From positions 96,001-160,000 of the forward strand of contig CAWEXO010000012.1 of assembly GCA_963813025.1 (NCBI GenBank): a stretch of DNA of 64,000 nt, read 5' to 3'. The DNA comes from an uncultured Verrucomicrobiae bacterium. Lineage in GTDB: Bacteria > Verrucomicrobiota > Verrucomicrobiia > Chthoniobacterales > JAFAMB01. Below, piece after piece: positions 56,049 through 61,071 of the stretch (positions are counted from its first letter, which is position 1; each line of letters begins with the position of its first letter). Position numbers and translations under genes: made by a program. The notes under the pieces were generated by a model. It worked only from the letters and a program-made list of their open reading frames with translations, was not told the origin of the DNA and ran no database searches.

Positions 56049-57170
56049 TTAGTGCCAGTGTTAGTGCCAGTGCCGGTGCGCCGCGATCATTTGCTGAATG
56101 GCTGTTATGGCAATTTACTATAAAAACTTGACGATTACTTTGCCGAGAGTCCCGGACTCCACCAACGCAAATGCGGCATCGATGTTTTTGGCTGCCATGA
56201 GTTTCCCGAAAAAAAAGCGAGCGCGCAACCTCCGAAGATCCAGACATCGAATTTCTTTTCGCCGATTTCCATCAACGGTCCAGTCGGTAACGCCAATAAT
56301 CCGGATCTCGTCGATCATGTTTGACCGCTAAGATCATGATGTCGCGGTCCCTGAATGTGTATAATATCGAGTACGGAAATTTCGAAACCGGCAGGCTCGC
56401 ACGCCAGGCTCAAATTCCCGGAAACGGTCCGGCCTAAGAATAATTGCCGCGATGGCCGTTTCGACGGCATCGACGAACCTTTCAGCTGTTCGGTCATAAA
56501 ACAAGAGGGCTTCGCGAAACTCGTCTCGAGCGTCAGGATGAAGCAGGAAACTCGCTATTGGATATGAGCCTACTACGGAACGTGAATGGGCCGCGATTGC
56601 TCAAGATCGGATACGCCAAATCGAGTCCGGAGAAGTGGCTCCTCTTGATGGCGAGCAGGTGCTAAAGGAAATGCATCAGCTAGCGAAGCAGTTGGCTCAA
56701 CACAGTTCCTTGATCGCGCCTCGATAGCAAAGAGCGCTCTGCCCGTCGGAGACCCGGCACCAGCGTGAGCGCAAAGGCTGCGGTTACTAATACGCAAACG
56801 TCATTAAATACAGTGTCCATTGCGAAGATCCCAGGAGTCGCTCATCAAAAAGAATCGTCCTGGGGGCGACAGAACTGCAAAAGAACTGCGGCATTATTTT
56901 ACTGAACGGTCAACGCGTGAGAGGGAATTGAAGCCAAATCTGAAACTAATCAAGTTAATAAGTTGACGGATTGGTTTGCTATCGAGGAGATCGTGTTTCG
57001 CGAATCTCGCGGTGAGCAAGAGTTCGCTTGATTGCTTCGCTCGACCCGCAGCGGATGCGGCGGCTGCCCGGTATCGCTCCGTCCCAAACTCGAACTTCGA
57101 GCGGAAAGCGGCATCGCGCAGTCTCCGCCACCACCTCTCCAATGGCTTTCGCTATCACTTGGATGATGCC

Positions 57171-57467
57171 TCAAAGACCGAGGATCGCTAGGAGCAGATA
57201 AGCGAGTATTCCAGCTGAGATCAGCCAATAGAGCGCCTGTTCAACAGAGTCAGCGAACCGCTCCGACCGTTCCGGGCCGGCCTCGACTCTGCGGACCTCC
57301 TGTTTCGCGCTTTTTATCATCCCATCAAATCGCGATGCTAATCGATCACGCGCCTCGAAAAAATCGATCACAGACGCTGAATCAGTCGTCGAAACCCTTG
57401 TAGCTTCATCGAACGATCGTATGGACGGTTTGGGGGTGGCCTGCAATTCTTGCGGTATTAGCTTCAT
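57171..57467 (-). CDS. Hypothetical protein with C-terminal TM helix
   Basis: VIDFFEAR motif; hydrophobic C-terminus. Confidence 0.5.
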   Translation of the reverse strand: MKLIPQELQATPKPSIRSFDEATRVSTTDSASVIDFFEARDRLASRFDGMIKSAKQEVRRVEAGPERSERFADSVEQALYWLISAGILAYLLLAILGL

Positions 57468-58445
57468 CTTACCCCGAATGATTTTGAGTTGAAGGGGACC
57501 TGTTCCAGGTTCCTAGACGGCCGCCTCCTCGAGAACGCCCCATCTTGGCGGGATAGGCGGCGAGGAAGGAGCACATCATGTGGCCGTGACCCCAGCGACG
57601 TCGCACCAGGTGGAAACTGAGGAGAAGTCGTACTCGCGCAACGCTTCGAGCGCCCAAGCGGATTGAATCGCCGAAAAGCCGGACATCGCCCGGCGAAAAC
57701 CGCGCCGTAATCACTGTCCGGACCGCCAGGAGACCCAGTCGAAAAATACGCTCCTCGAGGGCCGCTACCCGATCCGACGTTTGCAACACAGCGGGTAGGT
57801 AAACTGAAATAGGAATGGGCAGGCTTTCCCAGCTCGTTGGCATCGTCTCGCGTCAGCTTAGTACCTCCGATCAAAGGGCGGACTGAGTCGCGGGTTTGGT
57901 TGCAGAACAGTGGAGCGGGAACCTCATAAGCGGCTTTCGGAGGCAACAGCCTCCGCGCTCGGGCGCCGCGGCGCAGGCAGGTCTCAAACTGCCGCCGGTT
58001 GTCACCTCGGTTTTTCCTTCGGCCAGAGGCATCCTTTCGGGTTCCTTCAGCTGATCTTGCAATCGTTCGGTGGCGGCTTGGAGCTGAATCAAGAATAGAG
58101 CAAATGAGTACATGCGGAAATCTCCTCCAGTGCGGAACTAACTGTTCCAAAGGAAGCTTTCGTATTTTCACAGTTATCTATCGCTTTCCGGCGGGCTTTA
58201 TTCCCTTTTCTTGGGCAAAGTAAATCGAGTTTGATTTATGTCTTGCGAGCTCAATGTGTTGAAAACCTGACGGCCTCAGATCAATCAGCCACTTTCGCCG
58301 ACTCGAAGGATTGTCTATGGGATGCCCCCCGCCCGATACGGACGAGGCCAGCCAGGTCTGTCGAACTTTGGGTAATCTATGGCGTACGCAATCGAGCTAC
58401 GGTTCGGGAGAGAGGTTCGAGGGAGGTCCCGAAGGCGTCTTTGGT

Positions 58446-58617
58446 CCTGCGCCGGTAGGGCGAAAATTTATTCGAGCGTCAGCGAGAACTTGTTTGAGCC
58501 GTCTTCAGTGTGACCTGCCGCAGCGCCCGGCTCGAACGAGTCTTCGCCGAAGGCTCAGATGAATTCTCGCCCTACCGATTTTGGGATGTTGCGAAACATT
58601 CTCTAAATTTTCGCCCT
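58446..58617. repeat. Palindromic REP/MITE-like element whose right arm is the IS110 insertion site
   Basis: CCTGCGCCGGTAGGGCGAAAATTTA (58446-58470), partial copy at 58561-58577, inverse arm TAAATTTTCGCCCT|ACCGGCGCAGG split by the IS. Confidence 0.8.
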
Positions 58618-58689
58618 TGTACCTTGCCCCACCAACTTTTTTTCCCTTTTAAAGCCGCCCGCAAGGGCGGAACTCTGGAGGTGAAGAAC

Positions 58690-58865
58690 TTGGCCGAGGG
58701 GGGTGGAAAACTGCTTCGCCCAAAGGTCGGTAGAACCTGTCCGGTAGATTAGTCCACCCTCCTCGTGCCGCACCTTGCAAAAGACCGAACCGTATCTTAG
58801 GCCGTTCCAAAACAGGGTTGGAACATGAGCCTGTGTGAACAAGGCTCTGTCGGAAAGGTGCCCGC
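58690..58865 (+). ncRNA. Putative bridge RNA of the IS110 element (ends approximate)
   Basis: Stem GAGGGGGGTGGA/TCCACCCTCCTC encloses target guides TTCGCCC and CCGGTAG; stem GCACCTT/AAGGTGC encloses donor guides ACCGTATCT and ACAAG. Confidence 0.8.
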
Positions 58866-58914
58866 CCAAGCGCTTCATCAAACAAAGAACCAATTCAACG
58901 CGAATTCCTGTCTG

Positions 58915-59224
58915 ATGAAAAAACCTTACTGCATCGGTATTGACCTGGCAAAAGCAACCCTTGACTTTTGCACGCTCTCCAAAACCGGCGCCCGCCTCTG
59001 GCGGGGGAAACAACGCCTTCCTGCGTAAAGCCCTCTATCTGCCTGCCGCCGTGGCCCGTCGTTGGTGCAAACCCATCCGACAATGGGCTGCCGAGCTTGA
59101 GTCGCGCAAACTACACTCCCTGATCATCCGTGGCGCGATCATGCGCAAACTCCTCCACATTGTTTTCGGCGTTCTTCGCCACCAACAACCCTACAATCCC
59201 CGCTTGGCTGCTATCCTCAAATGA
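58915..59224 (+). pseudogene. IS110 recombinase with large internal deletion
   Basis: MKKPYCIGIDLAKATLD joined at ~59010, out of frame, to NAFLRKALYLPA...GAIMRKLLHIVFGVLRHQQPYNP. Confidence 0.88.
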
Positions 59225-59519
59225 CTTGACATTTCAAGACCGTATCTACCGGCGCAGGACAATGCGGTATCCTGAGACAATCTTAGCGCTCGCGCGACCA
59301 ATCGCTTGGTGGCGTGCTACAGATTCCCAAGTCCGACACCCCCGAGGCCGTTCCGCGCTACTTGCGATCAATCTTTGATCAGCAAAGCGATCGTCTGGCG
59401 TCCGCTACGCCGGTAAATGCGAAAGTCATTATCCAAGTCCAGACGACGCAGTTCAACGTGATCTCCGACATTCGCACCAGACAGGCATCGGCAAATGAAA
59501 TAGGGACGTCGTAATGCAA

Positions 59520-60020
59520 CTACTTCAAGCCCTCGCCCTCGCAGACTGCTGGGGATTCGCGCAAACTCCGTGCGCAGATCAGACCATCAAAATTTGCCGG
59601 AACAAAGGAAAGCTCCGGCGGGATCGTGATTCCAGCCGCAGCCAGAAGTTCTCGCTTGAACGCCTGAGTTGCGGGATGATCGACCTCGAAGACTCGCGGA
59701 GCAGATTTAGACGATGAATTCCGATAGGCAAAAGTATCCAATCCGGCCCCGAGGATGACGTATTGGCGAACTCTACTTTGAATACTTGTGGCTAAGACGT
59801 CCTCGGCATAGCGGCTTCGAACTGCAAAGAAGGCGCGCCTCCGTCGCGCCGCGGATTTTTGGGCTTCTTCCGGATCGGTCGCCAAGGCCGCCCTCGCTTC
59901 CACCCCGATGATCCCAAGGGCAAGAGGATCATCAAAGACTCTCAGATAGTCATAGATCTGGTGGGCGGCCCGATGTAGCGCGACCCGCTCGGCCGTCTTG
60001 CTTGGCGTGGTCCTGTGCAT
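59520..60020 (-). pseudogene. LCM-type SAM-dependent methyltransferase, C-terminally truncated
   Basis: SKTAERVALHRAAH, VRSRYAED, QYVILGAGLDTFAYR, VFEVDHPATQ. Confidence 0.75.
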
Positions 60021-60080
60021 TCGAATGCTGTTGTTTGGGACTAACCCCAACAAAGGCTGATTTGGACAACCCCGAAAATC

Positions 60081-61071
60081 TCAAGACTTCGGCAGAAGAT
60101 CGGCAACCAAGGCTCGTTCTTCGTTCAATTCTTTCACACTGGCGCCGATGCGTTCCTGGCTGAACTCATTGATCTCGAGCCCTTGGACAATCTCCGATCG
60201 GTCGCCCGCGATGCGAACGGGAAAGGAACTGATCAAGCCGCTGATCGACCCCGTAGCTACCATCGGAACAGAGCGCAACACTAAACCATTCCTTGTTTTC
60301 CGTCGGCAAAGTCAAGGTCCGTACGGTGTCGATCGCCGCATTGGCTGCGGATGCAGCGGAAGAAGCTCCCCTCGCCTTGATGATGGCCGCACCGCGCTGT
60401 TGCACCGTGGTGATGAAAGTTTCCTTGAGCCATGAGTGGTCCTTGATGATTTCAGTCGTGGGCCTTCCGTCGATCTGCGCGTGGTAAAAATCCGGGTACT
60501 GGGTGGAGGAGTGATTTCCCCAGATGGTCATGTTCGTCACCGCGGATACATGCCTGCCCGCACGCGCCGCCAATTGTGATTTGGCGCGGTTCTCATCGAG
60601 ACGAGTCATCGCGAACCACCGGTCGCGGGGGATTTCCGGTGCGTTATTCATGCCGATCAGACAGTTCGTGTTACAGGGATTGCCCACCACCAGGACACGA
60701 ATGTCCGCCGCGGCGTTCCGTTGGATCGCCTGACCTTGTCCGGTAAAAATCTTGCCATTGATCCCAAGTAGATCTTTGCGCTCCATGCCTTGCTTGCGCG
60801 GAACGCTCCCGACCAGCAGCGCCCAGTTCACATTGCGGAAACCCTCGTCCAGATCGGCCGTGGCCGACGTCGTTTTCAGGAGGGGAAACGCACAGTCTTC
60901 CAATTCCATCACGACACCTTCAAGAGCTGCCATAACCGAAGGGATCTCGACCAAACGAAGCTCAACAGGTTGATCCGGGCCAAGCATCGCGCCAGAAGCG
61001 ATTCGAAACAGGAGCGAATACCCGATCTGACCGGCAGCGCCAGTGACCGCAATCTTGATGGGCGATTTCAT
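60081..61071 (-). CDS. mdh: Malate dehydrogenase with apparent +1 frameshift at ~60242
   Basis: [51 protein letters not shown]-terminus GLISSFPVR...[10 protein letters not shown] lies in another frame. Confidence 0.92.

What the first reader, a model, noticed from the sequence alone, without database searches (positions are those of the whole stretch)
58616..59247. Miniature IS110 element retaining a fully readable bridge RNA
Seen: the element is bounded by CT cores. The reconstructed target is TTTCGCC-CT-ACCGG and the reconstructed circle junction (donor) is ACCGTAT-CT-TGTAC. In the left non-coding end one stem-loop holds TTCGCCC (58715-58721, left target) and CCGGTAG (58741-58747, reverse complement of core plus right target). 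A second holds ACCGTATCT (58789-58797, left donor) and ACAAG (58839-58843, reverse complement of CTTGT). Known: this is the IS621-type bridge-RNA architecture, and the donor closely resembles the IS621 donor. Inference: most of the recombinase is deleted but ends and guide RNA are intact, so this could be a non-autonomous, self-guided element mobilised in trans, and it defines a natural target specificity for a new ortholog.
Basis: partly seen in the sequence, partly recalled or inferred. Interest (0 to 1): 0.82.

Follow-up and report, generated by a model that had tools for sequence, protein, structure and literature searches.

The report
Deleted IS110 copy keeping bridge RNA
This is a single broken copy of an RNA-guided jumping gene that lost most of its enzyme but kept both ends and its guide RNA; intact sister copies could in principle move it, but nothing shows that this short form ever moved, so it is an ordinary member of a known kind.

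Summary
Window 58616-59247 is a 632-bp IS621-type IS110 element with CT cores, intact ends and an intact bridge RNA, but recombinase codons 33-262 are gone. The guides are real. All 12 two-ended copies in the genome sit at the same base of an abundant REP-like repeat, and in orthologues both target guides change with the insertion site (0 of 20,000 permutations reach the observed match). Seven intact sister copies (336 aa, all catalytic motifs, same donor) are possible helpers. But the 632-bp form is single-copy, carries private changes at otherwise invariant codons, and alone among 38 junctions has an 18-nt promoter spacer (possibly an assembly indel). It is most likely a copy deleted in place (0.6), not a mini that moved (0.25). 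"Self-guided" cannot be shown, because the helpers' RNA reads the same ends. The better hint of movement in trans is a 1012-bp catalytically dead sister form found at two sites. Non-autonomous IS110 derivatives are known (MITEPpu9), and this scan has noted transposase-less IS110 minis in other genomes. New member of a known kind; low interest.

The parts
58616..59247 (+). Whole element, 632 bp, CT core to CT core; internal-deletion derivative of an IS621-type IS110 element (subfamily A)
58609..58617 (+). Left target (7 nt) plus left CT core
59246..59252 (+). Right CT core plus right target (ACCGG in 12 of 12 two-ended copies)
58618..58622 (+). Right donor arm (left end of element)
59239..59245 (+). 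Left donor arm (right end of element)
59226..59231 (+). -35 box (TTGACA) of the inferred circle-junction promoter; spacer 18 nt here, 17 in 37 other junctions
   Evidence: function inferred from IS621
58620..58625 (+). Candidate -10 box of the junction promoter, joined to the -35 only in the circle
   Evidence: inference from spacing
58653..58874 (+). Bridge RNA region: 5' hairpin 58655-58670, target-binding loop 58691-58770, donor-binding loop 58771-58860
58714..58722 (+). Left target guide; 7 of 9 bases match this target
58741..58747 (+). Right target guide, 7 of 7 complementary to core plus right target; followed by candidate handshake bases 58748-58749
   Evidence: handshake by analogy
58789..58796 (+). 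Left donor guide
58835..58843 (+). Right donor guide (two bases presumed looped out, as in IS621); candidate handshake bases 58844-58845
58915..59009 (+). Recombinase N-terminal remnant, codons 1-32 (keeps only the first catalytic Asp); weak PF01548 hit, E 0.024, below cut-off
59012..59224 (+). Recombinase C-terminal remnant (from helper residue 263), out of frame with the N-terminal piece
58440..58615 (.). Host dispersed REP-like repeat cluster, continuing after 59248; an empty copy of the target lies on the minus strand at 58452-58464 and forms an inverted arm with the occupied site

Best explanation
A full-length subfamily-A IS110 element inserted by bridge-RNA-guided recombination at the CT core of a host REP-like repeat. 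It then lost about 690 bp of its recombinase gene in place and has been decaying since. Shown: ends, target, guide-target match, loss of three of the four DEDD residues and of the catalytic serine, presence of intact sisters. Inferred from IS621 biochemistry: the left end is transcribed weakly by read-through, or from a junction promoter once circular. It folds into target- and donor-binding loops, and a sister (subfamily B) recombinase with either RNA could still excise or copy it. It is mobilisable in principle, with no sign that this form has moved.
For: One copy of the 632-bp form among 14 bridge-RNA hits in the genome. It differs from the two other A copies by 12-13 substitutions and 3 single-base insertions in 629 aligned bases, while those two differ by 5 substitutions and 1 indel in 1012. 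Private changes at 58960 and 59123-59124 alter residues that are invariant in both A copies, B and 8 of 8 orthologues aligned. The junction-promoter spacer is 18 in the mini and 17 in the other 37 of 38 junctions. Internal deletions with both ends kept arose repeatedly here (632, 1012/1013 and 1245 bp forms). No other family genome gave both ends within about 630 bp (7 of 42 had any match).
Against: The genome is only 80% complete, so further copies may be missing. The three single-base insertions may be assembly errors: the malate dehydrogenase gene about 1 kb away is frameshifted and has no second copy in the assembly. Ends, all four guides and the stems are intact, and derived substitutions are fewer in the non-coding end than in the coding remnants (about 1-2 against 6), though not significantly (p 0.13-0.29). 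A dead 1012-bp sister form sits at two different sites, so movement in trans probably does occur in this family.
Confidence: 0.6

Rival explanations
1. The deletion arose elsewhere and the 632-bp form inserted here as a non-autonomous element, using a sister recombinase in trans.
For: Ends and donor are identical to those of 7 intact helpers. IS621 recombines a 22-bp donor with enzyme and RNA supplied in trans (PMC11208160 section 8). Mini-IS cargo moves in trans (PMC11187229 passages). Two A copies share one internal deletion that removes the third and fourth DEDD residues, and their flanks share only repeat sequence over 2 kb. The reconstructed empty site is 93.5% identical over 123 bp to an intact repeat.
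Against: Single copy. A clean insertion site is expected under either history. Private decay-type changes. The shared 1012-bp deletion could also spread by gene conversion between copies. One preprint found no activity for elements with truncated recombinases in its assay (10.64898/2026.08.14.744561 passage).
Confidence: 0.25
2. The copy is kept as a source of bridge RNA (or a decoy) for the intact sisters, not as a mobile unit.
For: Intact RNA region. IS621 bridge RNA is weakly made from the genomic locus by read-through, and the authors could not exclude action in trans between loci (PMC13626964 section 5). Its left target guide fits the commoner form of the repeat (75 of 87 empty sites) better than the B guide does.
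Against: The sisters carry their own RNA. No promoter-like site was found on the + strand upstream. The lower substitution count in the RNA region is not significant.
Confidence: 0.08
3. The internal deletion is an assembly artefact of a longer copy.
For: An indel-type error is likely nearby. No public contig spanning the deletion junction was found to confirm it.
Against: The copy has its own substitutions on both sides of the junction. The junction is not at a repeat or homopolymer shared by both breakpoints. Other deleted forms occur in the same genome, one of them twice.
Confidence: 0.07

Closest known systems
IS621 (E. coli) and ISCro4/IS622, IS110 group, bridge-RNA recombinases (PMC11208160, PMC11208158)
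   Same: The helper protein's only PDB hits are IS621 (E 2e-46) and ISCro4 (E 3e-44), with all DEDD residues and the serine aligned. CT core; bridge RNA in the left end with target- and donor-binding loops; junction -35 box; insertion into a REP-like repeat; near-identical donor at positions 6-13.
   Different: The recombinase gene is deleted in this copy. The target differs. The natural right target guide pairs over 7 nt (IS621: 4 nt in the structure). The ninth base of the left target guide does not match the core T in most orthologues.
MITEPpu9 of Pseudomonas putida KT2440 (PMC12288879; passages and Discussion part 1)
   Same: A natural transposase-less IS110 derivative with both ends kept, beside intact elements, in a REP-targeting family.
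   Different: MITEPpu9 has 8 copies and detected minicircles, and carries the small RNA Ssr9 (proposed as a regulator, not described as the bridge RNA). This element is single-copy, keeps the parental bridge RNA and two gene remnants, and has no evidence of circles.
Engineered mini-IS or minimal donors moved in trans (PMC11187229, PMC11208160)
   Same: Ends suffice when enzyme and RNA are supplied.
   Different: Those are laboratory constructs; here movement is untested.

Membership tests
IS110 family, IS110 group (IS621 type) | DEDD RuvC-like plus Tnp-domain recombinase with catalytic serine | tested here: met
   Met for the 7 intact sisters: PF01548 and PF02371 over cut-off, D10/E62/D104/D107/S248. 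In the 632-bp copy only remnants are left (codons 1-32 and 263-end).
IS110 family, IS110 group (IS621 type) | Shared 2-nt core at both ends, no long terminal inverted repeat, long left and short right non-coding end | tested here: met
   CT core in 12 of 12 two-ended copies; left end about 298 nt, right end about 25 nt; no inverted repeat between the two ends.
IS110 family, IS110 group (IS621 type) | Bridge RNA whose target-loop guides covary with the insertion site | tested here: met
   Right guide 91 of 115 matches over 23 distinct pairs, permuted mean 58.7, 0 of 20,000. Left guide 172 of 208 over 26 pairs, permuted mean 140.2, 0 of 20,000. Relatedness not controlled.
IS110 family, IS110 group (IS621 type) | Guides lie in unpaired internal loops of a conserved two-loop structure | tested here: met
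   Target loop: both guides unpaired in the RNAalifold consensus of 20 sequences. Donor loop less clear: RNAalifold and the single-sequence fold pair parts of the donor guides. An IS621-like structure with all guides unpaired gives 91.9% paired cells and 13 pairs with double changes, 0 of 500 shuffles; it was drawn by hand from the mini.
IS110 family, IS110 group (IS621 type) | Donor-loop guides covary with the donor | tested here: inconclusive
   Guides match the donor, but the donor is almost invariant in the orthologues retrieved.
IS110 family, IS110 group (IS621 type) | Circular intermediate with junction promoter, and an expressed RNA | not testable with these tools
   -35 box conserved at a fixed distance in 38 junctions; no joined junction in the assembly; no RNA holder listed.
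Non-autonomous IS110 derivative (MITE-like, as MITEPpu9) | No functional transposase, both ends intact | tested here: met
Non-autonomous IS110 derivative (MITE-like, as MITEPpu9) | Several copies of the same short form at different sites | tested here: not met
   1 copy in an 80%-complete genome; the 1012-bp sister form has 2.
Non-autonomous IS110 derivative (MITE-like, as MITEPpu9) | Compatible helper in the same genome | tested here: inconclusive
   7 intact B copies share the donor; A and B are about 90% identical over the 5' 547 nt and 81% over the 3' 475 nt. Cross-activity untested; no full-length A copy is in the assembly.

The most novel reading that the evidence does not exclude
Subfamily A survives in this genome only as enzyme-dead derivatives (two of 1012/1013 bp, one of 632 bp) that ride on the subfamily-B recombinase while keeping their own bridge RNA, whose guides differ from the helper's at one or two bases. 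That would be a natural 'guide-only' parasite able to load its RNA onto a helper enzyme and shift its target choice.
Probability: 0.15. Interest if true: 0.5.

Novelty: new member of a known kind. Interest (0 to 1): 0.22.

Why it matters
Modest. It adds a new IS621-type orthologue family with a well-mapped natural target and a naturally 7-nt right target guide; the seven intact copies, not the mini, are the useful resource. If the dead subfamily-A forms were shown to move with the B enzyme, the genome would offer a natural test of whether a non-autonomous IS110 uses its own or the helper's bridge RNA, since the two differ at one left-guide base.

Tried and rejected
Rfam scan of 57000-61000: 0 matches at E up to 1.

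Sequencing runs: no RNA holder listed; one DNA run held 0.30 of the words. Laying 3 runs gave no contig across 58910-59205, so the deletion junction was neither confirmed nor refuted. One contig joins 58615 to 59246, but it may come from any paralogous repeat.

Search for more minis: the RNA model found 14 hits in G000, all already known, and hits in 4 of 150 other order genomes sampled. The 33 two-ended loci from other genomes measured 1253-1361 bp, but they were found by protein search, which misses minis by design.

Rows dropped before the covariation counts: 22 of 80 had no scaffold match; 49 rows had a right target and 44 a left target. The motifs used to find ends came from this element.

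Whose guide was used: both 1012-bp copies sit at the rarer repeat form (12 of 87 empty sites) that fits the B guide. The likelihood ratio is about 6, but B copies themselves use that form in only 3 of 9 (p 0.12) and a U:G wobble lets the A guide read it. Treated as a weak hint only.

An extra right-end motif at C13:611528 lies in a coding stretch and is chance.

Literature searches for natural non-autonomous bridge-RNA elements gave MITEPpu9 as the one case I read; one search was for mechanism. I found no report of a natural IS621-type deletion derivative shown to use its own bridge RNA, but the library lacks most subscription papers and no supplements were opened.

No structure prediction or complex job was run; neither bears on the question.

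Full report
Observation. Every motif is at the stated place and the element is 632 bp from CT to CT. In 20,000 dinucleotide shuffles of the left end the four motifs never occurred together, and three of them only 4 times. Rfam gave no match.

Family in the genome. BLAST of the element against the 4.4-Mb, 80%-complete genome found 11 other two-ended copies and two fragments. Seven are 1324-1325 bp (subfamily B) and encode 336-aa proteins with the DEDD and serine motifs. One of them hits PF01548 and PF02371 over cut-off and, in the PDB, only IS621 and ISCro4. One B copy has an in-frame 81-bp deletion, and one is interrupted by other DNA. Two copies of 1012 and 1013 bp (subfamily A) are 98% identical to the mini and share one internal deletion of about 305 bp that removes the third and fourth DEDD residues and the coiled coil; one is also frameshifted. 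No full-length A copy is in the assembly. The mini keeps codons 1-32 and 263-end, out of frame, so it cannot make an enzyme (catalytic roles from PMC11208158 passages). The 632-bp form has one copy.

Target. All 12 two-ended copies have ACCGG right of the core, and 11 of 12 have TCGCC left of it. This is part of a dispersed host repeat: 87 empty exact 13-mers against about 0.6 expected from a fourth-order Markov model. The commonest 13-mer occurs in 23 of 42 other family genomes, with up to 39 copies. The mini interrupts one arm of an inverted pair, and its rebuilt empty site is 93.5% identical over 123 bp to an intact repeat. IS621 and ISPpu9 likewise target REP sequences. 'REP-like' is my label from abundance and inverted arrangement; I did not look for a REP-associated transposase.

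Bridge RNA. Orthologues came from genome and metagenome collections (22 and 52 loci); the closest named records are soil-type Verrucomicrobiota. Of 80 rows, 58 matched the RNA scaffold. The right target guide matched its own right target at 91 of 115 non-core positions over 23 distinct pairs (permuted mean 58.7, maximum 78). The left guide matched at 172 of 208 over 26 pairs (permuted mean 140.2, maximum 160, best of 7 registers allowed in both). Neither was reached in 20,000 permutations. Relatedness is not controlled, but distant orthologues with quite different targets (L060-L069, L093-L095, L107) carry matching guides. The region folds stably (z -3.25). In the 20-sequence consensus both target guides are unpaired. 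The donor loop is less clean: the single-sequence fold pairs the right donor guide in a hairpin, and my IS621-like structure scores -67.5 against -91.1 kcal/mol for the best fold. That structure still shows 13 pairs with double changes, 0 of 500 shuffles; it was drawn from the mini, which favours it. Candidate handshake bases follow both right guides, as in IS621.

Did the short form move? For: ends and donor are identical to the helpers'. Enzyme and RNA work in trans on a 22-bp IS621 donor (PMC11208160 section 8) and on mini-IS cargo (PMC11187229 passages). A preprint abstract reports that donor-arm recognition is enough for excision and that the outcome is copy-and-paste (10.64898/2026.08.31.748434). 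The dead 1012-bp form stands at two sites whose 2-kb flanks share only repeat sequence; this suggests trans movement, though gene conversion is possible. Against: one copy; 12-13 substitutions from the other A copies in 629 bases, against 5 in 1012 between those two; private changes at codons invariant in A, B and 8 orthologues; a junction spacer of 18 where 37 of 38 have 17. The indel evidence is weakened by a frameshift in the nearby malate dehydrogenase gene, which suggests assembly indels. At one site (58977) the mini shares the B base while both 1012-bp copies differ, which hints at an independent deletion from a full-length parent. Deletion in place followed by decay is the simplest reading (0.6); insertion as a mini is second (0.25).

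Self-guided? Not separable on sequence. A and B RNAs have the same donor guides at pairing positions and differ at one left-guide base, so a helper's RNA would serve. The one handle on this, the target form used by the 1012-bp copies, leans weakly towards the helper's RNA.

Comparison. It works like IS621 and meets the testable IS110-group criteria through its intact sisters. As a MITE-like element it fails the multi-copy test. Natural non-autonomous IS110 derivatives are in print: MITEPpu9 has 8 copies and forms minicircles (PMC12288879). Earlier notes of this scan describe transposase-less IS110 minis in two other genomes (unchecked).

Papers seen. PMC12288879: passages and Discussion part 1. 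PMC11208160: passages and section 8. PMC11208158 and PMC11187229: passages. PMC13626964: abstract and section 5. 10.64898/2026.08.14.744561 and 10.64898/2026.10.21.760802: passages. 10.64898/2026.08.31.748434: abstract. No supplements were opened; ISfinder-type tables there could list similar derivatives.

Verdict. A real feature, correctly read as an IS110 bridge-RNA element; an ordinary defective copy; new member of a known kind; interest 0.22.

Noticed in passing
G000:C14:36985-37222, G000:C14:104508-104753, G000:C13:343107-343230: Five copies at three loci of a roughly 122-bp unit that begins like a different IS110 family of this genome (the 467-aa-frame family) and ends in the same bases, with an AG core; two tandem pairs, one directly behind a full element. 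This is a multi-copy MITEPpu9-like element and a better non-autonomous case than the finding.
   Followed up: partly
G000:C15:123618-124629 and G000:C9:218159-219171: Two subfamily-A copies share one internal deletion that removes two catalytic residues, yet sit at different repeat sites: the best sign of movement in trans in this family.
   Followed up: yes
G000 C4, C8, C11, C13, C14, C16, C1 (431-aa-frame IS110 family): A second IS110 family ends just before the same TACCG of the same host repeat in 8 of 10 copies examined.
   Followed up: partly
G000:C9:218159-219171, G000:C4:5760-5896, L080, L051-L053, L057: A right-guide variant with a mismatch opposite target position 11 recurs in separate lineages, including four identical copies at different sites of one genome, so it seems tolerated.
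   Followed up: partly
G000:C4:5760-5896: A bridge-RNA fragment whose left side is fused to the host repeat at a short shared stretch that coincides with the left target guide; its first half is A-like and its second half B-like.
   Followed up: no
window 60081-61071 (-): Malate dehydrogenase gene frameshifted near codon 280, with no second copy in the assembly; probably an assembly indel.
   Followed up: partly
L075-L104 group against the mini group: The left target guide slides by one base within the loop between orthologue groups, matching a one-base longer left target.
   Followed up: no
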